From the NCBI GenBank assembly GCA_016786705.1, contig JAEUVV010000002.1, positions 50,106-114,105 on the forward strand: DNA of 64,000 nucleotides. The letters are read 5' to 3'. Below the pieces are notes generated by a model. That model saw only the letters and a list, made by a program, of their open reading frames with translations, searched no databases and had not been told where the DNA came from. Below, piece after piece: positions 6,839-64,000 of the stretch (the first letter of the stretch is position 1; each line of letters starts with the position of its first letter). The DNA comes from Taibaiella sp. (GTDB lineage: Bacteria > Bacteroidota > Bacteroidia > Chitinophagales > Chitinophagaceae). The position numbers and the translations under genes are program-made.

Positions 6839-8095
6839 TCAATTCCCGGACCGGAACAAGTACAAACGGAGGCCTACCTGGAAGCCAATCCAGGAACGGG
6901 TATAAGTACTCCTGTTGGATGAAAAATTTTCGGATAAATTAAATATCCTGGGAAACAAGCTAAAATTTTCTTCCACTAAGGGTACAGCGGCCGGGATAAA
7001 AGTATGAGGCGCCTGAATGACCTCATTATACAATATTTCCGTGCGGGAACGGTTAAAGCTCAGGCCCGAAAATAATTCCAGCCTGTTCCCAAGCTGCCAG
7101 TCCAGGTTGATGCCTGCCTTCCATACCTTACCGTTTAGCTTATAGGCGGCACTTCCTGTCACAGGGATTATTACTAATGAATCAGGGGGAGTACCTGTTA
7201 TACTGTCATATTGATAATTCAGCCGTTTGTCCAGGTTCGGGATCGCACCGTAATTGCCCCATAAAGAAATACGCAGGCTATTATTAATAGGTTTTGTATA
7301 GCTCAATCCAAAACGAAAATGAGACAGGTCACCCCGTATCGCATAATTCCCGCTAACAGATAGATTGCCCCAGTGTAAGCTCAGGCCGGGGTTCAGGTAA
7401 AAAACTTCATCGCCGGCAACATTAAAGGATAAGCCAAACTTCTGATACCAGTACTCACCAAGCGATGTAACTTCGGGATTATCCAGCCGATCCGTGTTTT
7501 CACTAATGCTTACCGTCTCTTTTTCCGGGGCAATCTTCCATTCGTACACAGAAATCAATTTACTATCAACCGTAAAAGTATCTGTAAAATCAGCAATGGT
7601 ATCCAGGGCCTCTAAAGGCAAAGCAGGCACCACTATAACCGGTGCTAAAGGTACTGCACTTCCGGACTTCGGTTTTAAGGGTTCCTCTGCTGCCAATATC
7701 CGCGTTTTAGCTTTCCTCTTTTTAGGGGTATGGCGTGCCAGCGCTTTTACCTCTTTCTGCAGAATAATGTGCTTACCGATAAACTTTGCCCGGATATGGT
7801 AGTTCTTGTTGAGCAAAACCGCCAGCTCTTTAGCGGTCATGCTTGATTTGGGTAAGCGCACCCGGGTTCTGCTTTTGATCTGTTGGGCATCATAAGAAAC
7901 AGAAATATCAGCCTGCTGCTGCATCAGTGTAGTCAGCTCATACACCGTGTAAGACTGCTTGGAAAAATTATAAGTATGGTTCAGTACTGCGCCTTGCCCC
8001 GCAGCTTTTGAGGAAACAAGCAACAACAATATCAGTACACTACAATATTGTTTAATTGGATGTAAAAATAATAGTATCCGTTGCACGCGCTTCAT
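6839..8095 (-). CDS. STN-domain outer-membrane protein with small C-terminal beta-barrel
   Basis: Signal peptide; STN-like N-domain (ISVSYDAQQIK...AKFIGKHIILQK); Pro-rich linker; alternating amphipathic strands ending FQVGLRLYLF. Confidence 0.7.
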   Translation of the reverse strand: MKRVQRILLFLHPIKQYCSVLILLLLVSSKAAGQGAVLNHTYNFSKQSYTVYELTTLMQQQADISVSYDAQQIKSRTRVRLPKSSMTAKELAVLLNKNYHIRAKFIGKHIILQKEVKALARHTPKKRKAKTRILAAEEPLKPKSGSAVPLAPVIVVPALPLEALDTIADFTDTFTVDSKLISVYEWKIAPEKETVSISENTDRLDNPEVTSLGEYWYQKFGLSFNVAGDEVFYLNPGLSLHWGNLSVSGNYAIRGDLSHFRFGLSYTKPINNSLRISLWGNYGAIPNLDKRLNYQYDSITGTPPDSLVIIPVTGSAAYKLNGKVWKAGINLDWQLGNRLELFSGLSFNRSRTEILYNEVIQAPHTFIPAAVPLVEENFSLFPRIFNLSENFSSNRSTYTRSWIGFQVGLRLYLFRSGN

Positions 8096-8975
8096 ATTTA
8101 ATGTCCAGAGTTTCCCTGATGATGTCCAGTACCTGGTCCAGGCTCAGGTCTTTACCTTTTAAGGTAAGCATTCTATCGGCAAGTATATGCTCCCCAATCT
8201 GCAGATCAGTATGGAAGTAGGTACCGATGCTGTCACATACCTGTTTTAAAGAATAATCTTTGTAATCAAAATCACCGGTAAGGGCTGTTTTCACAAAGCC
8301 GGAAGCTTTATTAAAAGTCAGCACTTCATTTTTTCCCACCAGTACCGTATCTTTTTGATACCAGGCAGCCACCATACCCCTGTATACCGTTATTTTTGCC
8401 AATCCGGCATCGCCTTCCACCAGGAATTTTGTACCTATGTCTTTTATATAGACCCCGGAAGGCAGCTCCAGGCGAAAGCCCGGGAAATCATTACTGAACG
8501 TAAACAAGGCATTGCCTTTAAGCGTAAAAGTTGTATCACCAGCTAAAATTTCTTCTTTTAAAAGAGCATCAGGCATCAGCCGGACTATTGCCCCCTCCTT
8601 GAGGTCAAATTGCTGGCTGGTTACCGAATAAGCAAAAACCCGGCTTTCACCTTTAGTAATCTTTCTATTTTGCCATAATACGATGCCAAGCACTAAAACC
8701 AGCATGGCGGCATAGGGCAACCACCTCAAAACTTTAGCTTTTTGTTTTACCGGGACCTGGTTATAGTTTGCTTTTCCGGCAAATTGTTGCCAGAGTTGGT
8801 CCATATCAGGGTTTTGATACTTATGATCTGCCGCCCAGATAGCCTTCAGCTCATTAAAAGATTGCTCATGCTCAGGCTGCTCCCTTCGCCATTCATCAAT
8901 ACGCAATGCCTCCCCGGGACTGGCCAGCCCCGAAAAATATTTAATCAGCAGATCCGTATTAACAGAATAGTTCAT
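8052..8975 (-). CDS. FecR family anti-sigma factor
   Basis: DLLIKYFSGLASPGEALRIDEW N-domain, one TM helix, LKGNALF, IKDIGTKF, VYRGMV, C-terminal F....LKQV..L..I. Confidence 0.9.
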   Translation of the reverse strand: MNYSVNTDLLIKYFSGLASPGEALRIDEWRREQPEHEQSFNELKAIWAADHKYQNPDMDQLWQQFAGKANYNQVPVKQKAKVLRWLPYAAMLVLVLGIVLWQNRKITKGESRVFAYSVTSQQFDLKEGAIVRLMPDALLKEEILAGDTTFTLKGNALFTFSNDFPGFRLELPSGVYIKDIGTKFLVEGDAGLAKITVYRGMVAAWYQKDTVLVGKNEVLTFNKASGFVKTALTGDFDYKDYSLKQVCDSIGTYFHTDLQIGEHILADRMLTLKGKDLSLDQVLDIIRETLDIKYEARATDTIIFTSN

Positions 8976-9507
8976 ATAACACTACTATTTGTATAAGACT
9001 CAGCTTATCCCTGTTTACCCTTATAAATTCCTGGATTATTTTTAAAGCTTTAGACATATGCGCCTCTACCGTTTTTACCGACAGACCCATTTCCACTGCT
9101 ATTTCCCTGTACTTTTTACCCCCGGCCCGGCTTTGCAGGAATACCTGCTTACACTGTTCCGGTAATTGCTCCAATACTTTATCAATAATCAGGCGCATAT
9201 CTGCACTTCTTTCCGCCTCAACTCTTTGTTCTTCAGCACTCATTTGTACCGCGCCCTCCTGTGCCGCAAATGCCGAATGCTTGTCTTCGGTAGCCCTTTT
9301 TCTTAACTGGCTTACCGCGGTATTATAAACGGTCCGGTATAAATAAGCCTTATCATAAGCGATGACTTTACCCGCTTCCAATTGATTATAATATTTCACA
9401 AAAGCATCCTGCACGACATCGGTCGACCATTCATGGTCTTCCAGGATCGTGAAGGCATAGCGATGCAGGTCCGGAAATAGTTGACGATATAATTGTTCGA
9501 AAGACAA
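8959..9507 (-). CDS. ECF RNA polymerase sigma-70 factor (FecI-like)
   Basis: DVVQDAF region 2; LPEQCKQVF...KYREIA..MGLSVKTVEAHMSKAL region 4; overlaps the fecR-like gene. Confidence 0.93.
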   Translation of the reverse strand: MSFEQLYRQLFPDLHRYAFTILEDHEWSTDVVQDAFVKYYNQLEAGKVIAYDKAYLYRTVYNTAVSQLRKRATEDKHSAFAAQEGAVQMSAEEQRVEAERSADMRLIIDKVLEQLPEQCKQVFLQSRAGGKKYREIAVEMGLSVKTVEAHMSKALKIIQEFIRVNRDKLSLIQIVVLYELFC

Positions 9508-9756
9508 TGAATTGCTTGGGAATTTCCGGAAAAATAGTAAAAAATACAGAAAGCCTCAAACATAAAGTATTAAGAAATAAATCCAATGGAAATATAAGCC
9601 TGACAAACACTACAATTCACTACATTGTGAAAATAAACCCTCATTTAGCCGGAACTTCAGCGTTCCGGTATCACCAGGTCCTGTTGAGATCCGGTTAGCG
9701 CGGAGCAATAAAGAAAACATGATTTATGCTTAAGCGACCTGCATTGAATACGATAT

Positions 9757-14462: not shown

Positions 14463-14509
14463 TTAAAGATAAAGCCTGAAGAAACTTTTCCTTCAGGCTT
14501 TATCTTTAA
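14463..14509. terminator. Bidirectional terminator
   Basis: Perfect 19-bp inverted repeat ttaaagataaagcctgaag / cttcaggctttatctttaa between convergent genes. Confidence 0.9.
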
Positions 14510-14536: not shown

Positions 14537-15349
14537 TTATTCCATATAATTATCACTGCCGCTTTTAGTAGTGATCAGGATAATCCCATTCGCACCGCGG
14601 CTGCCATAAATGGCCTTCCCGGTTGCATCTCTAAGCACGGTTAAGTATTGTACATCATTTGGGTTAATCGTATTCAAGGAACCGGTATAAGGCGCTCCGT
14701 CCAATACAATTAATGGGTCTGTAGAGGATATGAGAGAACCGCGCCCCCTTATTGTAAACCGGAAATTGGTGGCAATACCATTCCATATCCCATTTGCCGT
14801 CAAACCTGGTACTGATCCTACGAGGACTTCATCTAATGTAGCGCTATTCCTGATACGGATATCATCTGCCGTTAGTGTAGTGTGGGCACCGTTAAAGCTC
14901 CGGGGATGAATTTTCATACCAAATAGACTCGGCTGCCGGGGATTGCCTTTACCTTCAGCACGCAATAGGATATGATAATGCGATTCTGCATCATCTAAGT
15001 CAAAGGTTCTTTCTACTAAACCTGGAGCTCCTATTACCAGTTGTTTTTCACTCATCGGTACGCTGATAACAAACTGACCCTCGTAATCGACACTTGAAAC
15101 ATAATTTGAATTTTCAACTCTCACATATGGCAATGTGGCAAATCCTTCCGATTCGATTCTTCCGGTAATTAAGCGCTCCTCTTGTACTTCCTCCTTATGA
15201 AAGAGATTCAGGATAGCGCCTAAGAGCGTACCCTGCTGCCGGGTGCGCAGGTCTGGTTTTTCACTTTGAGCTAATGAAACATCCCCACTTAACACAACAG
15301 AAAATAAAAGAACTGCACCGGCAATTATTTTTAAGTAGTTTTTTTTCAT
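14537..15349 (-). CDS. Secreted CarboxypepD_reg-like plus SusC-type TonB plug protein, no barrel
   Basis: Signal peptide; ITGRIE...VSSVDYEGQF; PGL...FTIRGRGS...DPLIVLDG...INPNDVQYLTVLRDATGKAIYGSRGANGIILITTK, stop 8 residues later. Confidence 0.85.
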   Translation of the reverse strand: MKKNYLKIIAGAVLLFSVVLSGDVSLAQSEKPDLRTRQQGTLLGAILNLFHKEEVQEERLITGRIESEGFATLPYVRVENSNYVSSVDYEGQFVISVPMSEKQLVIGAPGLVERTFDLDDAESHYHILLRAEGKGNPRQPSLFGMKIHPRSFNGAHTTLTADDIRIRNSATLDEVLVGSVPGLTANGIWNGIATNFRFTIRGRGSLISSTDPLIVLDGAPYTGSLNTINPNDVQYLTVLRDATGKAIYGSRGANGIILITTKSGSDNYME

Positions 15350-15383
15350 GCTTTGTTCATTTAAATTAATTAAGGAATATAGT

Positions 15384-15412
15384 TAAGATGATAAATCCTA
15401 GCAGAAGGTTGG
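15384..15412 (-). promoter_or_regulatory. Putative ECF promoter CCAACC-N16-CATCT
   Basis: Same motif and spacing as 17308..17336. Confidence 0.6.
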
Positions 15413-15591
15413 TTCCTGATTTATTTTCTGTTCCGAAAACAATAATTACCTAAACTCATCAATATATACCCTGACAGGAACATTATATGTATGTAAATTA
15501 CAAAAAAAACGGGATATTACTATCCCGCCTTTCTATTCAATCTTATACCCTAAACTTTTTAACTTTGATATTTAACAGTTCATAAGTATTC

Positions 15592-16749
15592 TTACTGGCC
15601 GGGAACTGCTTTTCCTTTTTTCAACGTGATGACAATCACCCCGTTCTTAGCCCTGTCCCCATAGAGCACCCTTGCGGTGGCTTCCGGGAGGATCTTGACC
15701 TCTTTGATATGTTTTGAATTGATATCAGAAAATTTCCCGGTATAAGGTGCACCATTAATGATAATCAGCGGGTCGGTCGATGGAGCCTGGCGGAACATGG
15801 TTTGCTGCTTTTGCTTACTGGCCAGCTCTTGCCTTATGCTCGTAGTAGTCAGGGGGCTGGAATATAAGTTTTGCATCCCACGGCTCCTGTTATAGCGGGC
15901 AATATCGTTCAGCAAAGCCACATTGCTTTGTTCAGGGGAAATTTCTATTTTATAGGTATGCCGCTCAGCAACTTTTACGTATTTAGTTTCATTTCCGTAA
16001 GATTGCACCATAATAAACCGGGCCGTATCCGGGGCCTCTAAAGTAAATGCTCCCCTTTCATCTGAAGTGACTACCCTATCTGTTCCTGGTACGCTTACCC
16101 TGGCATTGGCCAAAGCAACACCTGCTTTATCAACTATGACACCCTGCAGTTGCAGCGATCGGGCTTCCGGCAAGCCGGGAGCAATATGCCGCTTTTCATA
16201 AACCGGAGCTTCTGTCAGTACAGGTGCTTCAAAAATTCCTGTCGCAGTATTTCCCGCAATTCTTGATCCGAATGATTCCGGGCCGGCATTAAGCTGTTCC
16301 AGGCTAAAATGAGGCGCTGATGGTATATTGCCGGTAGTAGCTATTCGGTTATCCGTATTTTGATTGCCAGGGATTGCGGTTACAATCACCGGGGCCTTTA
16401 CCCCCTCCTGTTTTATGGCCGGCTGGTTTTCAGCAGGTGTCGCCAGTATTGGTTGTTCCGCTTTTACCTGATCCTGTACTGGAGTACTTTTGCGGGCTGC
16501 GACCTCATTCTCATTGCTCTTCACACCGAAAAACTGGTTCCAACCTACCGCGATGCCTGTAATTAATACCAGGGCAGCAGCCATATATTTAATTGCGGAA
16601 AAAGAAAACAACTGTATTTTTTTAGTTTCCTGTTTATCCAATTGCTGCTCTATTCTGTTCCACAGCTTATCCTGAGCAAGAAAAGTCGTTTGCTCATCAG
16701 CAACTGCGGCCTCTTTAAACGCTTCGAACAACTTATTTTGCGATTCCAT
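15592..16749 (-). CDS. Putative anti-sigma factor with periplasmic CarboxypepD_reg-like and plug-like domains
   Basis: Overlaps the ECF gene; N-terminal KLWNRIEQQL then TM helix; LQGVIVDKAGVALANARV..SDERGAFTL; DPLIIINGAPY...LYGDRAKNGVIVITLK. Confidence 0.8.
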   Translation of the reverse strand: MESQNKLFEAFKEAAVADEQTTFLAQDKLWNRIEQQLDKQETKKIQLFSFSAIKYMAAALVLITGIAVGWNQFFGVKSNENEVAARKSTPVQDQVKAEQPILATPAENQPAIKQEGVKAPVIVTAIPGNQNTDNRIATTGNIPSAPHFSLEQLNAGPESFGSRIAGNTATGIFEAPVLTEAPVYEKRHIAPGLPEARSLQLQGVIVDKAGVALANARVSVPGTDRVVTSDERGAFTLEAPDTARFIMVQSYGNETKYVKVAERHTYKIEISPEQSNVALLNDIARYNRSRGMQNLYSSPLTTTSIRQELASKQKQQTMFRQAPSTDPLIIINGAPYTGKFSDINSKHIKEVKILPEATARVLYGDRAKNGVIVITLKKGKAVPGQ

Positions 16750-17287
16750 TTTCTTTATTTTTTAATTCATAGTGATGTTTTACCAGCTTCTGCAATTTCA
16801 CTCGGGCCACATTCACCTGGGATTTAGAGGTACCTTCAGATATCTGCAGCAATGCCGCGATTTCTTTATGGCCATAGCCTTCTATGGCAAAAAGGTTAAA
16901 TATGGACCGGCAGCCATCCGGTAAATAATCCAGTAGCTTCAGCAGGTCCTTATGTTCCAGCTGCTGGGTGGTGGATTGTTCATATACAGGCTCCTGCTTG
17001 ATATCGTCCAGCGACAGGTTGAAATTAACTTTTTTGCGCAGAAGCTGCAGGCTTTGGTTTACCGCCACCCTTTTAGCCCAGCCATATAAAGCATCGGCAT
17101 CTTTTAAGGTGTTCATTTTTGTAAAAATGAGTACGAAACTTTCCGCCAGGGCATCTTCGATTTCCATATCCAACTTCAAATAACGCTTACACACGCTATG
17201 CAGCATAGGGGCAAGCTGCAGATACAAGCTATGCTGCGCCTTTCTATCTCCTGATATACATGCTTTTATAATTGCCTCGTTGCTCAA
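16733..17287 (-). CDS. ECF RNA polymerase sigma factor
   Basis: TTG start; GDRKAQHSLY, DALAESFV, LPDGCRSIFNLFAIEGYGHKEIA.LLQISEGTSKSQ. Confidence 0.93.
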   Translation of the reverse strand: MSNEAIIKACISGDRKAQHSLYLQLAPMLHSVCKRYLKLDMEIEDALAESFVLIFTKMNTLKDADALYGWAKRVAVNQSLQLLRKKVNFNLSLDDIKQEPVYEQSTTQQLEHKDLLKLLDYLPDGCRSIFNLFAIEGYGHKEIAALLQISEGTSKSQVNVARVKLQKLVKHHYELKNKENGIAK

Positions 17288-17307: not shown

Positions 17308-17336
17308 TTAGATGCAGGGACTTCAAAAAAGGTTGG
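17308..17336 (-). promoter_or_regulatory. Putative autoregulatory ECF promoter CCAACC-N16-CATCT
   Basis: Minus strand CCAACCTTTTTTGAAGTCCCTGCATCTAA about 20 nt upstream of the sigma start. Confidence 0.6.
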
Positions 17337-21244: not shown

Positions 21245-21429
21245 CAGCCAAAACCAGATTAAAATTGAAAAAAATAACCTGCAACGTCCTGATAATATTA
21301 TTTGCCCTAATTTTTACCCCGCTATTATCTTTCGCCCAGTCAAAGACAAACCTCGATAACCCGGACAGCCTCATTCATTATTTAAAAATGGATAAGCACC
21401 CGGATTATCCTGAAGCTTCTGCTTTCTAC
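21225..21429 (+). repeat. 205-nt direct repeat, copy A (partner 23380..23584)
   Basis: Two mismatches counted by eye; covers the promoter and first 55 codons. Confidence 0.9.
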
Positions 21430-23259
21430 ATCCATAAAACGCTGGAAGAGGAATTGAATAATTTTGATGCCATTATGATCTTCGACATTGCGATCAAAAT
21501 ATTCGAAGTTAAAGATGCAGAGGACTACTTTCAACTCCTCCTGCCGCAATTTTCTTCAGGCATAAATTTAAAAGTACTGAGAATTACTACCTATAATTTA
21601 GAAAATGACAAGGTAACAACAACACATGTGGATAGAAGCTTCCTTAATCGAAAAAAACTAGAGCATTATCCACCTGTTCAATTTATTTCCGATTCCAAAA
21701 TAAAGAAAGGTTCTATAGTACGCTGCCAGATTCAATTCCAGGGTTCAAGTATTTTCAACAAATTTAATTTCCAGGAAATCCTTCCTGTTGAATACGCGGC
21801 TTTCCGCTTAAAAATACCTAAAGACCGCACAATAAAAGTAACAGAGCATGTAGGTACACCATTTCAAAAATTTGTAAACAAAGCATATTTTGAGACAGCG
21901 ATAAACTTTTCCAGCTCTGCTGTTTACTTTGAAAACAGGAGCGCAGTTCATAGCTGGGTCAGGCGAAAAGTACCACCTATAAAAAGGGAACTCTTCAATG
22001 ATGACCAGGTAGTAGAAAATGTGTTATTCGAATTTACACATAAGGATATTGAACAAAAAAGAAAGGACTGGGAGTCGGAGCTAAACAATATGACCTGGCA
22101 GGACTATAATTCAAATCTTTATAATGGCCGGTACCAGATCGCTTTTGAAAAAAATGAATATTTATATGACCTTATACCATCAATAGTCCATAAAGAGAAA
22201 GATAGTTTTATCATTGCGCGCTTACTCTTTAAATACATACAGGGTAATTTCACCCCTATAGATCAAGACAGAGTATTTCATTTTGAAACAATTGATGAAG
22301 ATAAAGAAGCTACGCCACTTACATTAAACCTTTTCTTATGCGCACTATACCGACATGCCGGTTTTCAAAGTGACCTGGTTTATATCTCCACCGACCGAAA
22401 AAACCCTCTAACTCCTGATAAAGTCAGCGATAAAAATATTGCCATTGCTGTTCGTGTCATTATGAATGGCACATCCTATTTCTGTAATCCCGCTTTGAAA
22501 AAGCTACCCTTCGGATATTTGCCATACAGCTATTACAATGGCTATACACGTTTAATCAATAAAACCGGGGGATTCATAGTCCTAAATCCTGAACTGGCCA
22601 AAAACCAATATAATATAGAAACAGCATTAAGCCATATTGATGCTGAACCTAATAAATTCAAACTGTCTATGAAAGAGAGCTTTGGCATATATGGATCCAT
22701 TCGCGAAAGAGAAGAATATACCAAAGATTCTATAGCTTATAAAAACGACTATAAAAAGCACCTGCAAAAATTAAATTCGGACTTAGACATCAATCATTAT
22801 ACCTTAAAAGTTGAAAATCTTCACGATATCGAATCCCCTTTTATGTTAACGGCTGAAGCAGAAATTGAATCGGGCAATAACTGGGACCAATTATTAATAG
22901 ATCCTTTTTTGCAAAAAGTATATAATGGAGAGAACCCTTTCCAAAAAATGAAAGACCGGAAAACGGATATCAAAATGGACTTCTGTAATAATTTTAATTA
23001 TACTTTTCGTTTTAACCTGGGTAACGGTATTACAGTTGAAGCGCTACCTTCCAAAACTGCACTACAGTATGCAAACCCGGCAGCAATTAAATATACCCAA
23101 GATGCCAGCTACAATGCAGGTACTCAAACGGTTGAAGCTAAATATAATTATGATATCATCCCTGCATTCTATGCTCCGGAAGAAGTCGAAGACCTTAATG
23201 CTTTTTATGCTGCAATCATAAAAGCCTCCAACCAAAAATTACTGCTCCGTAAACGATAA
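21265..23259 (+). CDS. DUF3857/transglutaminase-like protein, non-catalytic paralog 1
   Basis: TTG start, signal peptide, FQEILPVEYA DUF3857-like motif; ATPLTLN at the GDCK position. Confidence 0.8.
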   Translation: MKKITCNVLIILFALIFTPLLSFAQSKTNLDNPDSLIHYLKMDKHPDYPEASAFYIHKTLEEELNNFDAIMIFDIAIKIFEVKDAEDYFQLLLPQFSSGINLKVLRITTYNLENDKVTTTHVDRSFLNRKKLEHYPPVQFISDSKIKKGSIVRCQIQFQGSSIFNKFNFQEILPVEYAAFRLKIPKDRTIKVTEHVGTPFQKFVNKAYFETAINFSSSAVYFENRSAVHSWVRRKVPPIKRELFNDDQVVENVLFEFTHKDIEQKRKDWESELNNMTWQDYNSNLYNGRYQIAFEKNEYLYDLIPSIVHKEKDSFIIARLLFKYIQGNFTPIDQDRVFHFETIDEDKEATPLTLNLFLCALYRHAGFQSDLVYISTDRKNPLTPDKVSDKNIAIAVRVIMNGTSYFCNPALKKLPFGYLPYSYYNGYTRLINKTGGFIVLNPELAKNQYNIETALSHIDAEPNKFKLSMKESFGIYGSIREREEYTKDSIAYKNDYKKHLQKLNSDLDINHYTLKVENLHDIESPFMLTAEAEIESGNNWDQLLIDPFLQKVYNGENPFQKMKDRKTDIKMDFCNNFNYTFRFNLGNGITVEALPSKTALQYANPAAIKYTQDASYNAGTQTVEAKYNYDIIPAFYAPEEVEDLNAFYAAIIKASNQKLLLRKR

Positions 23260-23367
23260 ATATTCCGCTTCAAAATAAGTACAGGACTGCTTCTAGGTTA
23301 TTTTATCCTACCCGCAACCGCTGCAAATTTCAGTCGACCCGCTTCAGGCACCCGATGAAGTTCCTGA

Positions 23368-23399
23368 TTTGACCAGAATAAAGTAATCAATTACTTTTG
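23368..23399 (+). promoter_or_regulatory. Bacteroidota primary-sigma promoter (copy 2)
   Basis: TTTG-N20-TACTTTTG. Confidence 0.8.
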
Positions 23400-23584
23400 C
23401 AGCCAAAACCAGATTAAAATTGAAAAAAATAACCTGCAACGTCCTGATAATATTATTTGCCCTAATTTTTACCCCTCTATTATCTTTCGCCCAGTCAAAG
23501 ACAAACCTCGATAACCCGGACAGCCTCATTCATTATTTAAAAATGGATAAGCACCCGGATTATCCTGAAGCTTCAGCTTTCTAC
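23380..23584 (+). repeat. 205-nt direct repeat, copy B
   Basis: Near-identical to 21225..21429. Confidence 0.9.
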
Positions 23585-25411
23585 GTTCATAGAATCATCC
23601 AACAATACTATGATAATTATGATTCGGATATAACATTAGATATTGCCCTTAAAGTATTTCAAATTAAGGATGTCGAAGAACTGGCCAACCTGATTTTGCC
23701 AAAATTTGCCAATGGGATAAAACTAAAAGATCTTAAGATGACTACCTACAACCTGGAAAATGGTGTCGTTCAGACTAAAGAGCTGGACAAAACTGCACTC
23801 CAGGAAACTAAGCTCGGGCAAGGTAATTCTATTCGACTGATGACTGCGGCTCATGCCAAAAATGGCTCTATTGTCCGTTACCAGCTTACTGTAAAAGGAG
23901 CAAGACCAATCTTCGGGTTTGACTTCCAGGAGGAGCTGCCTGTCGCCTATGCAGCCTTTGAACTTAAAATATTAAAAAAACGGCTTATCCGGGTGGAAAA
24001 GACGGTAAAGTTTCCCTTCCGGGAGTTCCAGGACACTACAGCCTTTAATGCAAGTACACTACCCGCCACATCTATGGTCACCTTTCGAAACAGGCATACG
24101 ACCTATAAATGGGTAAGACGGAATGTTGCTCCGTTCAAGTTAGAAGCATTTACTTCCAAACAAAGCCCGGAGCACCTTCAAATTCATTTTGATACTGAAA
24201 AAATTACAACCTTGAAACGAATGAATGTAGTTGATTCCAATAATTTAGCCTGGGAAACTTACAATACTAAACTTTACAATTCCTACAGTCACTCTTTTGC
24301 TAAAAATGATGATTTATACAAACAACTCCCTTTAATTATCAATGCGGAAACCGATAGCCTTAAAATAGCCATGCAGCTGTTTAAGTATGTCCAGGATAGT
24401 TTTAGTTTAATAAGCCATTCTTTTGCAACAGACTTCAAGGAAATTATTAAAGAAAAAAAAGGTACTCCTGTGGCACTTAATCAATTACTGTGCGCGCTTT
24501 ACCGGCATGCAGGCCTGCCCAGCGACCTGGTATACGTTTCTACAGACAGGAAGAATCCCTTTACCCCCGATAAAGTTAATGAAGTAGCTATAGCAGTAGC
24601 TGTTCGGGTAATATTAAACGGCGTATCTTATCTGTGCGCCCCGGATCAGAAAAAACTGCCTTTCGGCTACCTGCCTTACAGGTATTATAACGGCTATTCC
24701 CGTTTAATCAATAAAACGGGTGGTGCTATTACTTTAGATCCTATTTTAGCCAAAAATAGTTATAATACAGATGTAACCCTTACTCCCCTTGATTCTGCCT
24801 CGAATAAATTCAAGATCAGCTTCCGAAAAAATTTCGGTTTCTACACTTCTCCGGACGAAAGAGAGGAATACAAAGCTGATTCCGTTACTTACAAGGAATT
24901 ATATCAAAAACACCTGGAAAGTATCACTCCGGACCTGAGCATCAGCAACTATACTTTAAGTGTTGAAAACCTGAAAAATATCGAACAGCCCTTTATTGTA
25001 CATGCGCAAGCAGAGATAGACCTTGGAGATAACTCAAACATACTATTCCTGGATCCTTTCCTGCAAAAAATATATAACGGCCAAAACCCGTTCCAGAAAA
25101 TAAAAGATCGGGACAATGAGGTGGAAATGGATTTTTGCTATACGCTGAATTATAGTTTCCGCTTACAACTCAATGATAACCTCAGGGTCGGGGAACTGCC
25201 CTCTAAAAATGCAATGCAATATGCCAGCCCGGCAGCGATCAGGTATTCCCAGGGAGCCAGCTACAATCCATCTGACAATAGCGTTGAAGTAAAATACACT
25301 TATGATATTATCCCGGTATTTTATGCACCTGAAGAAGTAGCAGACCTCAATGCATTTTATACAGAAGTTATGAAAACCATCAATCAAAAATTATTGCTTA
25401 AAAAACGATAA
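23420..25411 (+). CDS. DUF3857/transglutaminase-like protein, non-catalytic paralog 2
   Basis: Paralog of 21265; GTPVALN at the GDCK position. Confidence 0.8.
   Translation: MKKITCNVLIILFALIFTPLLSFAQSKTNLDNPDSLIHYLKMDKHPDYPEASAFYVHRIIQQYYDNYDSDITLDIALKVFQIKDVEELANLILPKFANGIKLKDLKMTTYNLENGVVQTKELDKTALQETKLGQGNSIRLMTAAHAKNGSIVRYQLTVKGARPIFGFDFQEELPVAYAAFELKILKKRLIRVEKTVKFPFREFQDTTAFNASTLPATSMVTFRNRHTTYKWVRRNVAPFKLEAFTSKQSPEHLQIHFDTEKITTLKRMNVVDSNNLAWETYNTKLYNSYSHSFAKNDDLYKQLPLIINAETDSLKIAMQLFKYVQDSFSLISHSFATDFKEIIKEKKGTPVALNQLLCALYRHAGLPSDLVYVSTDRKNPFTPDKVNEVAIAVAVRVILNGVSYLCAPDQKKLPFGYLPYRYYNGYSRLINKTGGAITLDPILAKNSYNTDVTLTPLDSASNKFKISFRKNFGFYTSPDEREEYKADSVTYKELYQKHLESITPDLSISNYTLSVENLKNIEQPFIVHAQAEIDLGDNSNILFLDPFLQKIYNGQNPFQKIKDRDNEVEMDFCYTLNYSFRLQLNDNLRVGELPSKNAMQYASPAAIRYSQGASYNPSDNSVEVKYTYDIIPVFYAPEEVADLNAFYTEVMKTINQKLLLKKR
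25223..25399 (+). repeat. 177-nt direct repeat, copy A (partner 27348..27524)
   Basis: Five mismatches counted by eye, four of them synonymous. Confidence 0.9.
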
Positions 25412-25501
25412 GAAAAGAGAGAGCCTCGAAATAAATACGGGCCTGCTCTGATCGCAGTAAATCCCGGCCAAACCGCTTCAGACAGCAGACAGAGCGCCCG
25501 A

Positions 25502-25533
25502 TTTGACCGAAAAAAAGTAATGAATTATTTTTG
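25502..25533 (+). promoter_or_regulatory. Bacteroidota primary-sigma promoter (copy 3)
   Basis: TTTG-N20-TATTTTTG. Confidence 0.8.
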
Positions 25534-25553
25534 CAGCCAAAACCAGATTCACC

Positions 25554-27536
25554 TTGAAAAAAATAACCTGTAAAATTCTTTTAATTTTATTTGCGGTACT
25601 ATTAACCCCTCTGTTATCCCGCGCCCAGGTAAAACCGGACCTTGACAATGAGGACAGCCTGGTTCGTTATTTAAAAATGGATAAGCATCCGGATTATCCC
25701 GAAGCTTCAGCCTTCTATATACAAAACATTGTCCGGCAAAATATTGACCCTTACGGATCGGATATCCAGGTAGATATCGCCTTAAAAATATTTAAGGTTA
25801 ATGACGTAGCGGAGTATGTCAACTTTATTTTACCCAAATTTACCCAGGGTATTAAATTAAAAGAATTTAAAGTAAGGACCTATAATCTCGAAAATGGATT
25901 GTTGCAAACAAGAGAACTGGATAAGAAATCACTCCAGGAAACTAAAATAAAAAAAGGCAAATCAATTCAAACGATCAGTGCAGCACATGCAAAAGACGGC
26001 TCTATTGTCCACTACCAGTTCACCATACATGGCAGCGCTGCCGGCTTGTTCCTATTCCAGGACGAATTGCCGGTACACTATGCTGAATTTACAGTAAAAA
26101 CATTAAAGGATACAAAGATTAAAGTAAAAGAAAGTATCAACACGCCATTTAAGGTATTTACCGATAAACCGGCATTCTTTAGTTCGCCCCTGCCTTCAAT
26201 TGCGATTGCCGACAGGCAGAGAAGATATATCGTCTATACATGGATCAAAAGAGACCTTGCCCCGTTTAAAGAAGAAATATTTACCTCTAAACAAAAACCG
26301 GAGCAATTAAGTATTGATTTTTACCATATAGAACAAAACATTCATAGTGAAGACAGCGAATTCCAAAACTACACCTGGAAAACTTACAATACCGTCTTGT
26401 ATCAACAGTACAGCAGTGCTTTTACAAAAAATAATTTTTTAGCAAAGCATTTACCTGCGATAACCGGGAAAGAGCAGGATACCCTTAAATTGGCACAAAA
26501 TCTTTTTAAATATGTTCAGGACAGCTTTAATGTAGGGAATGATTTAAAAACGAAAGATATCGAAAAGCTGGTGAAGGATAAAGAAGGTAACCAGGATGCT
26601 TTAAATATGCTACTATGTGCCCTATACCGGCAGGCAGGCCTGACCAGTGATCTTGTATTGGTGAGTCTGGAAAGGAAAAGACCCTTATCGCCCGGCAGGG
26701 TCACTATGAGCCACACAACGATTGCCGTAAGAGTGATGATCAATGGTGTAGCCTATCTTTGTGCCCCCGACCAGAAAAAATTACCTTTTGGCTATTTGCC
26801 CTATGCTTACTATAATGGATATACCCGCTTAATCAATAAAGAAGGGGGTTCAATAGTATTAAGCCCTGAATTGGCAAAAAACAAGATCGACGTAGCGGTG
26901 ACGATAAGTCCTGTTGATACGCTGCATCGGAAATTTAAAATTGAGTTCCGTAAAAGTTACGGTATATATGGCTCTGCCAGTGAACGGGAGCGTTACCGGA
27001 AAGACACTGCCGCCTATCACGATTTTTTTAAAAAACGTCTTGAAGCGCTTAGCCCTGATCTGAATACGAGCAATTACGCCTTCAAAGCAGAAAACTCAGA
27101 AAATATAGAACAGCCTTTGGTCCTAGCCGGGGCAGGAGAAATCGACCTGGGTGACCATCCCGGGATATTGTTTTTAGACCCATTCTTACAAAAAATATAT
27201 GATGGTCAAAACCCGTTCCAGCAAATGAAAGATCGGGATACTGATGTGGAAATGGATTTTTGCTATACGCTGAATTATAACTTCCGTTTACACCTCAATC
27301 CTAAAATGAGCGTTGAAGAACTGCCTTCAAGAAGCACTCTTCATTACGCCAGCCCGGCAGCGATCATGTATTCCCAGGGAGCCAGCTACAATCCATCTGA
27401 CAATAGCGTTGAAGTAAAATACACTTATGATATTATCCCGGTATTTTATGCGCCTGAAGAAGTGGCAGACCTCAATGCTTTTTATACAGAAGTTATGAAA
27501 ACGATCAATCAAAAATTATTGCTTAATAAAAAATAA
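25554..27536 (+). CDS. DUF3857/transglutaminase-like protein, non-catalytic paralog 3
   Basis: Paralog; GNQDALN at the GDCK position. Confidence 0.8.
   Translation: MKKITCKILLILFAVLLTPLLSRAQVKPDLDNEDSLVRYLKMDKHPDYPEASAFYIQNIVRQNIDPYGSDIQVDIALKIFKVNDVAEYVNFILPKFTQGIKLKEFKVRTYNLENGLLQTRELDKKSLQETKIKKGKSIQTISAAHAKDGSIVHYQFTIHGSAAGLFLFQDELPVHYAEFTVKTLKDTKIKVKESINTPFKVFTDKPAFFSSPLPSIAIADRQRRYIVYTWIKRDLAPFKEEIFTSKQKPEQLSIDFYHIEQNIHSEDSEFQNYTWKTYNTVLYQQYSSAFTKNNFLAKHLPAITGKEQDTLKLAQNLFKYVQDSFNVGNDLKTKDIEKLVKDKEGNQDALNMLLCALYRQAGLTSDLVLVSLERKRPLSPGRVTMSHTTIAVRVMINGVAYLCAPDQKKLPFGYLPYAYYNGYTRLINKEGGSIVLSPELAKNKIDVAVTISPVDTLHRKFKIEFRKSYGIYGSASERERYRKDTAAYHDFFKKRLEALSPDLNTSNYAFKAENSENIEQPLVLAGAGEIDLGDHPGILFLDPFLQKIYDGQNPFQQMKDRDTDVEMDFCYTLNYNFRLHLNPKMSVEELPSRSTLHYASPAAIMYSQGASYNPSDNSVEVKYTYDIIPVFYAPEEVADLNAFYTEVMKTINQKLLLNKK
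27348..27524 (+). repeat. 177-nt direct repeat, copy B
   Basis: Near-identical to 25223..25399. Confidence 0.9.
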
Positions 27537-27543
27537 AGCTGCC

Positions 27544-63700: not shown

Positions 63701-64000
63701 AGCCGAACCGGTTACTTCCCCATCCATTTCTTTTCTACTCAAAATATTACTTTGTCCAAAGCTCTTTCTCTGCGCCAGCTGGTGCAATACGGCTTCCACG
63801 ATGATGACCGCGCCATCCACGATAAGACCGAAATCCAAAGCACCCAGGCTCATCAGGTTGCCCCCTACCCCGGACAGGTTCATCATAATGACCGCGAACA
63901 GCATCGCCAGGGGAATCACGGAGGCGACAAGAAGACCGGCCCTGAAATTACCTAAGAACAGTACCAGGATAAACACCACGATCAGCGCTCCCTCCATCAG
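60701..64000 (-). CDS. CusA/CzcA heavy-metal RND permease fused to a C-terminal TolC-like domain (5' end outside window)
   Basis: GALDFGLIVDGAVIIVE, GVAVLNG, RLRPVLMTA, QRPLATVVIGG, then about 380 aa of OEP-like sequence. Confidence 0.93.
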   Translation of the reverse strand: MMEGALIVVFILVLFLGNFRAGLLVASVIPLAMLFAVIMMNLSGVGGNLMSLGALDFGLIVDGAVIIVEAVLHQLAQRKSFGQSNILSRKEMDGEVTGSATKMANSAVFGQIIILIVYLPILTLQGIEGKMFKPMAQTVAFALIGAFILSLTYIPMMSALVLSRKIKVKASVSDRVMAKLELLHQKYLVRALKFRKAVIATVIVLFLGTVLVLTRLGGEFIPTLEEGDFAVEMRILQGSNINKTIEVTNQAAAILREAYPEVQKVVTKIGSAEIPTEPMPMDAGDMIIVLRPKAEWTSAKSFPELAEKMSNSLKVIPGLTTGFQFPVQMRFNELMTGARQDVVCKIYGENLDSLAILAERLGSIINTVKGAQDLYIEPVAGAPQLVIGFNRAALARYGISIREANRVVNMALAGQSTGLVFEGERRFELVVRMDNEQKQDVGQISNLLIPAANGIQVPLHQLAAIELKSSPNQIQREESRRRIVVGFNTRGRDVQSIVEELQSKVAKEIKLPGSYSINYGGAFENLNQAKARLGIAVPVSLVLIFLLLFFAFGSVKHSLLIYTAIPLSAIGGIYFLALRGMPFSISAGIGFIALFGVAVLNGIVLIAEFNRLRKSGLRNTTRIVLHGTRMRLRPVLMTAFVASLGFLPMAISNGSGAEVQRPLATVVIGGLMLATLLTLFVLPILYILFEHIKMPRFKRKKRAVMLLMAMFSAGILANAQQSITLEQAFEMAARRHKDITGAELKVKYAELSTKTAWQVPQAELGAVYGQTEGLENDNSFSISQRMSFPVVYKRKQEVLLEELNYALSGQALVRAQLKQKISVIFYQVLVLQEQHRLLQYSDSIYASFAEKAALKVALGAADLLEQSTAEIQREQIKVQLNAITNAIRIAGLQLQFLTQADEEVIPVAASPKLALEQAQGAGTGSGQSHPELRLMENQLHINESLVKYEKSKLLPDLSFAYENKTMKNLGAQRFNSVQLGIGIPIFNRAQGAAIRASRQQVAIAANELALKQAQLNASLEQLNSAYRNQLLIVSNFETRQLPRARQILTTAEEKYIAGDINYLDWVILVNQSIKVRSDYTDALEQLNLLTAQINYLNTK

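What the first reader, a model, noticed from the sequence alone, without database searches (positions are those of the whole stretch)
14537..17287. ECF sigma / anti-sigma system built on barrel-less TonB plug domains
Seen: the ECF sigma overlaps a gene with an anti-sigma-like N-terminus, one TM helix, a CarboxypepD_reg-like domain and the C-terminal half of a SusC plug (DPLIIINGAPYTG...YGDRAKNGVIVITLK). The next gene is a separately exported CarboxypepD_reg plus full plug (DPLIVLDGAPYTG...YGSRGANGIILITTK) that stops cleanly and is followed by a strong terminator. Known: these domains normally sit inside SusC/RagA barrels. Inference: free periplasmic plugs act as sensor and decoy, for example reporting TonB engagement or unfolded TBDT load, with the soluble plug protein as a feedback effector.
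Basis: partly seen in the sequence, partly recalled or inferred. Interest (0 to 1): 0.72.

Follow-up and report, generated by a model that had tools for sequence, protein, structure and literature searches.

The report
ECF sigma system with barrel-less plugs
A soil/bioreactor Bacteroidota bacterium has a conserved three-gene stress-signalling unit whose membrane sensor and secreted product are both built from the "plug" part of an outer-membrane transporter without the transporter barrel; this is a previously undescribed use of that module.

Summary
On the minus strand lie an ECF sigma factor (16733-17287), an overlapping single-pass anti-sigma-like protein (15592-16749) ending in a SusC-type NTE domain plus the last ~60 residues of a plug, and a separately exported NTE plus full plug protein (14537-15349) with no barrel.

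These are not recent truncations. Orthologs down to 31-46% identity keep the same lengths, stops and synteny, and dN/dS is 0.03-0.2.

New here:
- An intrinsic terminator separates the anti-sigma and plug genes.
- An identical bipartite motif (CCAACC-N16-CATCT) precedes both the sigma operon and the plug gene. It occurs only twice in 64 kb and is conserved in all orthologous loci. The plug protein is therefore very probably a direct target of the sigma.
- Neither protein keeps a Ton box, so TonB sensing is unsupported here.
- The anti-sigma belongs to a wide, unannotated Bacteroidota family (NTE-plug, often plus a YfbK-type vWA domain; probably ECF289-like).
- The ~60-aa half-plug also occurs as tandem repeats on BlaR1-like sensors.
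- In related genomes the same promoter motif precedes an alpha-2-macroglobulin-like protein and a DUF4139 protein that carry inserted plugs.
- The plug gene is a recombination/divergence hotspot.

The signal sensed remains unknown.

The parts
17310..17336 (-). ECF-type promoter motif CCAACC-N16-CATCT upstream of the sigma operon. The -10 box ends 23 nt before the TTG start.
   Evidence: One of only two perfect matches in 64 kb. It is conserved at the same position in all orthologous loci that include this region, including Taibaiella, while the spacer varies.
16733..17287 (-). ECF sigma factor, 184 aa, TTG start.
   Evidence: Pfam Sigma70_r2, r4_2 and ECF; TIGR02937. It is 91-98% identical among close loci, with omega 0.03-0.06.
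16618..16749 (-). Anti-sigma cytoplasmic N-terminus (aa 1-44), MESQNKLFEAFK...KLWxRIEQQLDK. The first 17 nt overlap the end of the sigma gene.
   Evidence: Nearly invariant in 18 orthologs. The signature recurs in 28 of the 150 best cluster representatives. Its conservation tracks that of the sigma. It has no Pfam or PDB match.
16528..16617 (-). Single transmembrane helix (aa ~45-74).
   Evidence: The only hydrophobic windows in the protein are at aa 45-70. AF2 predicts a helix over aa 3-73.
16168..16527 (-). Disordered Pro/Ala-rich periplasmic tether (aa 75-194).
   Evidence: pLDDT below 50. The segment is hypervariable, with omega 0.39-0.65.
15925..16167 (-). Sensor NTE (CarboxypepD_reg/Ig-like) domain (aa 195-275).
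   Evidence: Pfam PF13715. pLDDT above 90. Foldseek match to the SusC NTE structure 9hfj, TM 0.91, rmsd 1.1 A. omega 0.04-0.11.
15784..15924 (-). Degenerate remnant of the Ton-box region and N-terminal half of the plug (aa 276-322). Predicted helical at low confidence, but under selective constraint.
   Evidence: Alignment to SusC and relatives. AF2 predicts helices at aa 274-289 and 302-318, pLDDT 47-72. omega 0.10-0.14.
15595..15783 (-). Half-plug, the SusC/RagA signature module (aa 323-385), predicted strand-strand-strand-helix-strand.
   Evidence: TIGR04056 positions 151-208. 48% identical to aa 209-264 of the neighbouring plug protein. pLDDT 83-90. 42% identical to the levan SusC plug over 62 columns. 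omega 0.03-0.08.
15503..15534 (-). Intrinsic terminator after the anti-sigma gene (GGGAUAGUAAUAUCCC plus U8).
   Evidence: Terminator scan. Fold energy -18.4 kcal/mol, z = -6.1. Conserved in orthologous loci, with an analogous hairpin in L017.
15386..15412 (-). Second copy of the promoter motif CCAACC-N16-CATCT, 37 nt upstream of the plug gene's ATG.
   Evidence: It is present wherever the plug gene exists, including L017 (CATCC variant).
14537..15349 (-). Exported barrel-less NTE plus plug protein, 270 aa. It comprises a signal peptide (aa 1-27, SLA|Q), a conserved helix motif GTLLGAILNLF (aa 40-50), an NTE-like domain (aa ~57-132), an unconstrained linker with no Ton box (aa 133-150), and a full plug (aa 151-264).
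   Evidence: Pfam Plug positions 5-107 of 107; TIGR04057 above its cut-off. AF2 model and Foldseek matches to SusC/RagA plugs and to the NTE. Ton-box alignment. omega 0.10-0.18 overall. RNA contigs from a near-identical strain map inside it.
14464..14508 (.). 21-bp hairpin between the convergent plug and uvrB genes (a probable bidirectional terminator).
   Evidence: -31.2 kcal/mol, z = -6.1.

Best explanation
This is a conserved ECF sigma / anti-sigma signalling unit of an Edaphocola/Taibaiella-related Chitinophagaceae lineage.

The sigma is held at the inner membrane by the short cytoplasmic N-terminus of the 385-aa single-pass protein. That protein reaches into the periplasm on a ~120-aa disordered tether. 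It ends in an input module derived from the N-terminus of a SusC-type transporter: an NTE Ig-domain plus a plug remnant in which only the last ~60 residues are kept.

When the anti-sigma is inactivated (inferred: by regulated proteolysis, as for other single-pass anti-sigmas), the sigma transcribes two units from identical promoters (CCAACC-N16-CATCT). One is its own operon. The other is the adjacent gene for a Sec-exported, Ton-box-less NTE plus full plug protein.

The product is a paralogue of the sensor's input module. The most likely logic is therefore mimicry: the soluble plug protein competes with the sensor for whatever periplasmic partner or protease engages NTE/plug modules, which buffers or shuts off the response.

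Shown in silico: the gene structures, the domains, barrel-lessness across orthologs, purifying selection, the two transcription units, and the shared conserved promoter motif.

Inferred: sigma binding, proteolytic activation, competition, and the identity of the signal.
For: - Domains and topology.
- Conserved lengths and synteny (KpsF, sigma, anti-sigma, plug, convergent uvrB) at 31-99% identity.
- The N-terminus co-varies with the sigma while the tether does not.
- The same N-terminus is coupled to a 184-aa ECF sigma in distant relatives whose periplasmic domains differ (L010, L016).
- A terminator lies between the genes.
- The promoter motif has two perfect hits in 64 kb, both at the expected sites. 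It is conserved in every orthologous locus with a variable spacer. It gives 18 hits in 584 kb of plug-related metagenome loci against 0.43 expected, all on the gene strand.
- Purifying selection on structured parts, omega 0.03-0.14.
- The only near-identical RNA contigs within this 3.3-kb locus fall inside the plug gene.
- In related genomes the same motif precedes other plug-bearing periplasmic proteins (A2M-like with NTE plus plug; DUF4139 with plug). Sensor and regulon products therefore share the module.
Against: - No experiment or multimer model shows that the N-terminus binds the sigma. It matches no known anti-sigma domain by sequence.
- The promoter assignment is purely comparative, with no mapped transcription start site.
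- Plug-protein divergence is uncorrelated with sensor divergence, so a tight sensor-product complex is not indicated.
- One short-form relative (L015) has no adjacent plug gene.
- RNA support is sparse and comes from assembled contigs.
- The ligand or signal is unknown.
Confidence: 0.55

Rival explanations
1. Spare-plug / sealant effector. The sigma-induced free plug is not a regulator. It inserts in trans into plug-less or damaged TonB-dependent transporter barrels to close them during envelope stress. Lacking a Ton box, it would be a permanent seal.
For: - The full plug is retained under purifying selection (omega 0.05-0.12).
- The Ton box is lost.
- An isolated plug is reported to behave as an unfolded protein outside its barrel (Usher 2001, as cited in PMC11658791), which suggests it needs a partner.
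- AF2 confidence for the plug part is only moderate (pLDDT 50-78).
- From my own knowledge, not checked here: separately exported FhuA cork and barrel were reported to reassemble in vivo (Braun and co-workers, 2003).
Against: - No plug-less barrel gene is seen in the window or in any locus.
- The model does not explain why the anti-sigma, A2M-like and DUF4139 proteins carry the same module.
- The fast-evolving NTE half of the protein has no role in this model.
Confidence: 0.12
2. TonB-engagement sensor. The free and tethered plugs are pulled by, or compete for, TonB and so report the energisation state of TonB-dependent transporters.
For: - Several relatives of the anti-sigma keep a canonical Ton-box-like strand between NTE and plug: LSDVVVVGYG, LEEVVVTAYQ, LDEVVVTAFG.
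- The NTE is hypothesised in the literature to influence TonB pairing (PMC7782687; 2026 preprint).
- Half-plug repeats co-occur with TonB_C domains on BlaR1-like proteins.
Against: - In the window's clade the Ton-box position reads ALLNDIARY in the anti-sigma. In the plug protein and its orthologs it is a variable Pro/Gly-rich segment (NPRQPSLFG, ADNGPAMYG, PFGKSGIHG).
- That linker is the least constrained part of the plug protein (omega 0.39-0.73).
Confidence: 0.08
3. Not a regulatory pair. The 385-aa protein is merely a co-transcribed membrane protein, and the 270-aa ORF is an unrelated neighbour or a decaying SusC fragment.
For: - No recognised anti-sigma domain by Pfam, NCBIfam or PDB sequence search.
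- Most other short plug-only hits in databases are truncated or frameshifted SusC genes.
Against: - All ORFs are intact, with conserved stops, in more than 12 loci, and dN/dS is 0.03-0.2.
- Promoter and terminator are conserved.
- The overlap with the sigma gene is retained from this clade out to vWA-type relatives.
- The N-terminal signature is linked to a 184-aa ECF sigma in every context inspected.
- There is no barrel remnant downstream.
Confidence: 0.05

Closest known systems
ECF289-type sigma / anti-sigma pairs (anti-sigma with von Willebrand A plus DUF3520/YfbK_C; Casas-Pastor et al. 2021, PMC7826278)
   Same: Distant relatives of the window's anti-sigma share its N-terminal signature, TM helix and coupled 184-aa sigma, and they carry vWF_A + VWA + YfbK_C after NTE + plug. 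Examples are Taibaiella L010, P0147, P0149, P0156 and P0201. The autoregulatory promoter motif is shared with Taibaiella.
   Different: The window's anti-sigma has no vWA/YfbK part and only a half plug, and it has a separate plug gene under the same promoter. The paper's main text mentions neither plug nor NTE in these anti-sigmas. Group membership of the sigma could not be tested because no ECF group models were available.
[quoted passage not shown] 2024, PMC10927553)
   Same: A Bacteroidota-specific design: a short cytoplasmic sigma-binding N-terminus, one TM helix, a long intrinsically disordered periplasmic tether, and a C-terminal domain borrowed from outer-membrane proteins.
   Different: Dma proteins end in an 8-stranded outer-membrane beta-barrel (OMP_b-brl_2). 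This protein ends in a soluble NTE plus half plug with no barrel. No sequence relationship was tested.
FecA-FecR-FecI / SusC-STN trans-envelope signalling
   Same: An ECF sigma and a single-pass anti-sigma linked to the N-terminal periplasmic parts of TonB-dependent transporters.
   Different: There the transporter's STN domain contacts a FecR-type anti-sigma. Here the anti-sigma itself carries transporter N-terminal modules. It has no FecR or STN domain and no Ton box, and no cognate transporter gene is in the window.
Periplasmic feedback inhibitors of envelope-stress systems (CpxP for CpxA; RseB for RseA). Comparison from general knowledge.
   Same: A small exported protein encoded next to, or within the regulon of, the stress system, proposed here to modulate the sensor.
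   Different: Here the exported protein is a paralogue of the sensor's own input module. No binding has been shown, and its divergence does not co-vary with the sensor.
SusC/RagA N-terminus (NTE + Ton box + plug)
   Same: The NTE fold matches 9hfj and 6ytc. The plug matches SusC/RagA plugs at 29-38% identity over 113-144 columns. The SusC/RagA signature TIGR04057 is present.
   Different: No 22-strand barrel and no Ton box. One copy is tethered to the inner membrane and the other is soluble.

Membership tests
ECF (group 4) sigma-70 factors | Only sigma-2 and sigma-4 regions, ~180-200 aa. | tested here: met
   Pfam Sigma70_r2 (aa 21-86) and r4_2 (aa 114-165); TIGR02937 at 70.3 bits against a cut-off of 42.9.
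ECF (group 4) sigma-70 factors | Co-transcribed cognate anti-sigma, and an autoregulated promoter with an AAC-containing -35 box and a short -10 box. | tested here: met
   A 17-nt overlap with the downstream membrane protein. A conserved CCAACC-N16-CATCT motif lies 23 nt upstream of the start in all loci. This is comparative evidence only; no transcription start site was mapped.
Class I anti-sigma factors (ASD / zf-HC2 / RskA) | A recognisable ~80-90 aa anti-sigma domain, often with an HxxxCxxC zinc site. | tested here: not met
   No Pfam or NCBIfam hit on aa 1-75 at E<=1. A profile of the N-terminus finds nothing in the PDB. The cytoplasmic part is only ~44 aa and lacks Cys/His motifs.
SusC/RagA TonB-dependent transporters | 22-strand beta-barrel. 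| tested here: not met
   The proteins end 6-10 residues after the plug. Orthologs are the same length. There is no room downstream because uvrB lies 85 nt away.
SusC/RagA TonB-dependent transporters | Ton box (e.g. DEVVVTG in Bt1763) between NTE and plug. | tested here: not met
   Alignment. The reference Ton box is taken from PMC7782687. The segment is relaxed, with omega 0.39-0.73.
SusC/RagA TonB-dependent transporters | NTE (PF13715) and plug (PF07715) with the TIGR04057 signature. | tested here: met
   Met fully for the 270-aa protein. The anti-sigma has the NTE plus a partial plug only.
ECF289-type anti-sigma (vWA + DUF3520) | vWF_A / VWA / YfbK_C domains in the periplasmic part. | tested here: not met
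   Absent from the window protein. Present in relatives L010, P0149 and P0156.
ECF289-type anti-sigma (vWA + DUF3520) | Sigma assigned to group ECF289 by the group HMM. | not testable with these tools
   No ECF-group models were available, and the supplements of PMC7826278 are not held.
[quoted passage not shown] | C-terminal 8-stranded outer-membrane beta-barrel. | tested here: not met
   The AF2 model and Pfam show NTE plus half plug and no barrel. The family definition is from PMC10927553.
FecR-type sigma regulators | FecR / FecR_C domains and an STN-bearing transporter partner. | tested here: not met
   No FecR domains. No other plug-bearing gene in the window. An unrelated FecR_C protein lies at 8052-8975.

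The most novel reading that the evidence does not exclude
A 'protease alarm and decoy' system in which the barrel-less plug is a sacrificial bait. A free plug is loosely folded. Any protease that reaches the periplasm would cleave the anti-sigma's NTE/plug module and so trigger intramembrane proteolysis and release of the sigma.

The sigma would then induce soluble decoy baits (the 270-aa plug protein). In related genomes it would also induce an alpha-2-macroglobulin-like trap that carries NTE plus plug at or next to its bait-region position and keeps a thioester motif (GCTEQ).

This reading would explain three things: why sensor and regulon products share one module, why no Ton box is needed, and why the plug gene is a recombination/divergence hotspot (an arms race).

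Basis:
- The promoter motif precedes the A2M-like and DUF4139 plug proteins.
- Alignment to ECAM residues 969-1229, including the thioester motif.
- The ECAM bait region lies at about residues 923-956 (PMC4498604).
- A divergence island is confined to the plug gene.

The bait-position argument is an extrapolation across an unaligned stretch.
Probability: 0.15. Interest if true: 0.85.

Novelty: new variant of a known kind. Interest (0 to 1): 0.66.

Why it matters
1. It defines an unannotated family of Bacteroidota anti-sigma factors. The family spans 28 of the 150 best 50%-identity clusters and is labelled 'hypothetical' or 'Ca-activated chloride channel' in public sources. Its input domain is the periplasmic N-terminus of a SusC-type transporter without a barrel.

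2. It shows that the last ~60 residues of the plug are an autonomous, repeatable periplasmic module. The module is used on ECF anti-sigmas, on BlaR1/M56-like transducers, on an alpha-2-macroglobulin-like protein and on a DUF4139 protein. This gives a handle on what plug and NTE surfaces bind outside a barrel. The function of the SusC NTE is still open in 2026.

3. It gives a concrete, testable regulon signature (CCAACC-N16-CATC[CT]) that links the sensor to products carrying the same module.

4. The localised allele replacement in the plug gene hints at an antagonistic interaction in the periplasm.

Tried and rejected
- Recent truncation or pseudogene: rejected. Lengths and stops are conserved, omega is 0.03-0.2, and there is no downstream remnant. 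Other short plug-only database hits are mostly contig-end or frameshift fragments of real SusC genes; P0101 lies in a locus of fragmented ORFs.
- Ton box: looked for and not found in either window protein.
- Known anti-sigma domain: none by Pfam, NCBIfam or a PDB profile search.
- Sigma group: PDB and NCBIfam give only generic ECF matches, with RpoE closest. The ECF289 supplement is not held.
- Homology between the L028 motif-driven 615-aa T9SS protein and the window's tandem 660-aa paralogs: none.
- Defence-system (PADLOC) and phage (PHROGs) libraries: no hits. Viral contigs hold no relatives of the plug protein.
- Rfam on the locus: only sub-threshold chance hits.
- Literature searches for barrel-less plugs on anti-sigma or BlaR1 proteins, and for a defined NTE function: nothing found.
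- The last homolog search, with the N-terminal profile, returned only short fragments and was uninformative apart from source names.
- Phmmer of the A2M-like protein's N-terminal 1100 aa against the PDB found nothing useful.
Full report
**1. What is there**

The first (16733-17287, 184 aa, TTG start) is an ECF sigma factor. It has Pfam Sigma70_r2 and r4_2, and TIGR02937 scores 70 bits against a cut-off of 43.

The second (15592-16749, 385 aa) starts 17 nt inside the sigma gene. Its parts are:
- a ~44-aa cytoplasmic N-terminus;
- a single hydrophobic span at aa 45-70;
- a ~120-aa Pro/Ala-rich segment that AlphaFold2 leaves disordered (pLDDT below 50);
- a confidently modelled Ig-like domain at aa 198-270 (pLDDT above 90), whose best PDB match is the solved NTE domain of a SusC (9hfj, TM 0.91, rmsd 1.1 A);
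- two low-confidence helices;
- a final strand-strand-strand-helix-strand unit at aa 328-376 (pLDDT 83-90), which matches the plug of the levan SusC at 42% identity over 62 columns.

Pfam sees Plug profile positions 31-107 just under threshold. BLAST shows that only the last ~56 residues are clearly plug-like.

The third ORF (14537-15349, 270 aa) has these parts:
- a signal-peptide-like N-terminus ending SLA|Q;
- a conserved short helix motif (GTLLGAILNLF);
- an NTE-like domain seen by structure;
- a complete plug (Pfam positions 5-107 of 107 at 57.6 bits; SusC/RagA signature TIGR04057 above its cut-off).

It ends 85 nt from the convergent uvrB gene. A 21-bp hairpin lies between them, so no barrel remnant can exist. 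These are the only two plug-bearing ORFs in the 64-kb window. The surroundings are ordinary chromosomal genes: uvrB, mfd, kpsF, an SNF2 helicase and an RND pump. The window comes from a bioreactor metagenome.

**2. Not a recent truncation**

Anti-sigma orthologs at 48-96% identity are 384-394 aa. Plug-protein orthologs at 61-99% identity are 259-274 aa, and they sit on the same contigs.

In every locus fetched from this clade the order is KpsF, sigma, anti-sigma, plug, then convergent uvrB. A deeper relative (L017) has an anti-sigma only 31% identical that still carries a full Pfam plug. It has the same arrangement, and its plug protein is 46% identical.

A metagenome-wide scan with the plug-protein profile found only five further full-length orthologs. 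Each one with enough flank lies directly downstream of an anti-sigma of this family. The next-best matches are ordinary 1051-1070-aa SusC genes.

Reference genomes place the family in Chitinophagaceae (Edaphocola, Taibaiella).

All three genes are intact in six loci compared codon by codon:

| Region | omega (dN/dS) |
|---|---|
| Sigma | 0.03-0.06 |
| Anti-sigma NTE | 0.04-0.11 |
| Anti-sigma half-plug | 0.03-0.08 |
| Anti-sigma degenerate middle region | 0.10-0.14 |
| Plug protein's plug domain | 0.05-0.12 |
| Anti-sigma tether | 0.39-0.65 |
| Plug-protein linker at the Ton-box position | 0.39-0.73 |

Only the last two are relaxed.

**3. Transcription architecture (new)**

A canonical intrinsic terminator (GC stem plus U8, z = -6.1) follows the anti-sigma gene.

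Phylogenetic footprinting of the two intergenic regions reveals the same bipartite motif. CCAACC-N16-CATCT lies 23 nt upstream of the sigma start and 37 nt upstream of the plug ATG. These are the only two perfect matches in the 64-kb window.

Both sites are conserved at the equivalent positions in all orthologous loci while the spacer sequence varies. The sigma-proximal site is also present in Taibaiella and in L015. The plug-proximal site is present wherever a plug gene exists, including L017.

The plug gene is therefore a separate transcription unit, very probably driven by the same autoregulated sigma.

A metatranscriptome containing a near-identical strain provides weak support. Its only near-identical contigs within this 3.3-kb locus, and two of only five across 40 kb, lie inside the plug gene, and none lie on sigma or anti-sigma. 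Contig data cannot prove absence.

**4. Is the 385-aa protein an anti-sigma?**

It matches no known anti-sigma domain. The case rests on four points:
- The translational overlap with the sigma gene is conserved.
- The N-terminal 48 residues are 44-94% identical across relatives in step with the sigma (48-95%), while the tether is 21-36%. Part of the invariance of MESQNK reflects dual coding with the end of the sigma gene.
- The same N-terminal signature (ME.QDKLF..FK.AA...E...F....W.R.E..LD) plus TM helix is coupled to a 184-aa ECF sigma in relatives whose periplasmic parts differ.
- The overall design parallels the experimentally studied Dma anti-sigmas of Bacteroides: a short N-terminus, a TM helix, a disordered tether and an outer-membrane-derived C-terminal domain (PMC10927553).

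**5. The wider family**

An exhaustive profile search, followed by classification of the 150 best cluster representatives and Pfam scans, gave this breakdown:

| Class | Count | Notes |
|---|---|---|
| Anti-sigma N-terminal signature, short | 23 | end 3-50 residues after the plug signature |
| Anti-sigma N-terminal signature, with vWA | 5 | continue with vWF_A + VWA + YfbK_C |
| BlaR1/Peptidase_M56-like | 29 | 3-7 tandem half-plug repeats, often with TonB_C and NTE domains |
| Other | 39 | 2-6 repeats |
| Full-length SusC | 21 | |
| Single-copy hits | 33 | probably fragments |

[quoted passage not shown] DUF3520 is YfbK_C, so this is probably the described face of the family. The plug/NTE content is not mentioned there. 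JGI labels fragments of these proteins 'Ca-activated chloride channel'.

Barrel-less plug modules on signal transducers are therefore common in Bacteroidota but, as far as the held literature shows, undescribed.

**6. Ton box**

The Ton box of the SusC protein Bt1763 is DEVVVTG, directly after the NTE (PMC7782687). An alignment of NTE-plug modules shows the following at that position:

| Group | Sequence at the Ton-box position |
|---|---|
| Canonical SusC fragments | LDEVVVVGYG |
| Several anti-sigma relatives | LSDVVVVGYG, LEEVVVTAYQ, LDEVVVTAFG |
| Taibaiella type (degenerate) | LSSVNVYA |
| Window's anti-sigma | ALLNDIARY |
| Plug-protein orthologs | variable Pro/Gly-rich residues |

Together with the relaxed omega of that linker, this argues against TonB engagement in the window's system. 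It leaves TonB engagement open for other branches of the family.

**7. Regulon hints from related genomes**

In 584 kb of metagenome loci retrieved by plug similarity, the motif CCAACC-N16-CATC[CT] occurs 18 times against 0.43 expected. Every hit is on the strand of the plug gene.

Besides the sigma and free-plug sites, it precedes:
- a 1983-aa secreted alpha-2-macroglobulin-like protein with NTE plus full plug inserted at aa 1102-1296 (L041);
- a 640-aa DUF4140/DUF4139 protein with a plug inserted at aa 314-418 (L046 and L059). L046 comes from the same assembly as L034, a vWA-type sigma locus that uses the same CATCC variant;
- two T9SS-sorted proteins that lie just upstream of SusC genes (L028, L032). 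L032 comes from the same assembly as the trio locus L021.

In the vWA lineage a 176-aa plug-only protein (signal peptide plus plug) lies between uvrB and the sigma gene (L030).

The plugs of all these proteins belong to one subfamily (KIDKRxY...PLIVLDGAPYSG...KAVYGARAANG). The window's free plug is closest to that subfamily: 48% identity to the Taibaiella anti-sigma plug and 50% to a SusC of that type.

The sensor and several likely regulon products thus share the module.

**8. An unexplained feature**

Between the window and L019, DNA identity is 87-97% across kpsF, sigma, anti-sigma and uvrB. It drops to 63-77% over the plug promoter region and the first two-thirds of the plug gene. dS is 1.46 there, against 0.26 for the neighbouring genes.

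Among eight close loci:

| Protein | Pairwise identity |
|---|---|
| KpsF and sigma | 91-99% |
| Anti-sigma | 50-89% |
| Plug protein | 40-82% |

Plug identity does not follow sensor identity. This looks like allelic replacement or balancing selection confined to the plug gene. It argues mildly against a tightly co-evolving sensor-product complex and is reminiscent of loci in antagonistic interactions. No defence-system, phage or viral links were found.

**9. Mechanism**

The best-supported reading is as follows. An autoregulated ECF sigma is held by a single-pass anti-sigma whose input is a tethered NTE/half-plug module. On activation, the sigma transcribes its own operon and the gene for a soluble paralogue of that input module. 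That paralogue most plausibly competes for the same periplasmic partner or protease, which gives feedback.

Rival readings and their probabilities are listed in the Rival explanations section. They are a spare plug that seals barrels, TonB sensing, and a non-regulatory bystander.

The most novel reading not excluded is a protease-bait alarm. In the A2M-like relative the region after the insert aligns to ECAM residues 969-1229, including the thioester motif (GCTEQ against CLEQ). ECAM's bait region lies at about residues 923-956 (PMC4498604). By extrapolation, the NTE-plug insert sits at or next to the bait position. An isolated plug is reported to behave as an unfolded protein (PMC11658791), which would make it a good protease substrate. 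This reading is inference only.

**10. Verdict**

The system is a new variant of the ECF sigma/anti-sigma kind. It belongs to a broad, unrecognised family, and the signal it senses is unknown.

Noticed in passing
window 14650-15550: A divergence island confined to the plug gene and its promoter region. DNA identity to locus L019 is 63-77% here, against 87-97% in the flanking kpsF, sigma, anti-sigma and uvrB genes. dS is 1.46 against 0.26. This suggests allelic replacement by recombination.
   Followed up: partly
L041:647-6595 (metagenome contig PJTQ01000024.1): A 1983-aa secreted alpha-2-macroglobulin-like protein (A2M and bMG10 domains, GCTEQ thioester motif) with NTE plus full plug inserted at aa 1102-1296, next to the expected bait-region position. 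The same CCAACC-N16-CATCT motif precedes it.
   Followed up: partly
L046:3059-4978 and L059 (RCUP01000019.1; Ga0256908_1000024): A 640-aa DUF4140/DUF4139 protein with a plug domain inserted at aa 314-418, preceded by CCAACC-N16-CATCC. L046 comes from the same assembly as L034, a vWA-type sigma/anti-sigma locus that uses the same -10 variant.
   Followed up: partly
L030:2130-2696 (also L031, L034, L037): In the vWA-type lineage a 176-aa plug-only protein (signal peptide plus plug, no NTE) lies between uvrB and the sigma gene, bracketed by terminator hairpins. A near-match to the promoter motif (AACC-N17-CATCT) lies upstream.
   Followed up: partly
proteins P0143-P0146, P0150-P0155, P0172, P0222: The ~60-aa half-plug (PLxxxDG...VLKDxxAxxxYGxxGxNGVIxIxTK) occurs as 3-7 tandem repeats in BlaR1/Peptidase_M56-like membrane proteins, often with TonB_C and NTE domains, and in small secreted repeat proteins. 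It appears to be an autonomous periplasmic module.
   Followed up: partly
window 21265-29478 (+): Four tandem genes of 644-664 aa with no Pfam match. The first three are paralogs (49-60% identical, near-identical signal peptides); the fourth is only 21-24% identical to them.
   Followed up: partly
window 6839-9555 (-): A second, unrelated ECF-type unit: a sigma-like ORF (8962-9555), a FecR_C-containing protein (8052-8975) and a 418-aa ORF with no Pfam hit (6839-8095). Near-identical metatranscriptome contigs map at 7740-7924 and 8615-8818.
   Followed up: no
window 60701-63997 (-): An AcrB-type RND pump ORF runs in frame, with no stop, into an OEP/TolC-like segment that has its own signal-like start (MPRFKRKKRAVMLL...). 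This is either a fusion or a lost stop. The ORF is cut by the end of the window.
   Followed up: no
window 50563-56499 (-): A 1978-aa protein whose only Pfam hit is a T9SS C-terminal sorting domain.
   Followed up: no
P0156 aa 173-265; PDB 9n2d_E: NTE-type domains of this family weakly match BamP (NCBIfam NF053692, E 4.6e-6). The NTE models match a subunit of the Flavobacterium johnsoniae BAM complex by fold, so the Bacteroidota BAM machinery also contains an NTE-like Ig domain.
   Followed up: no
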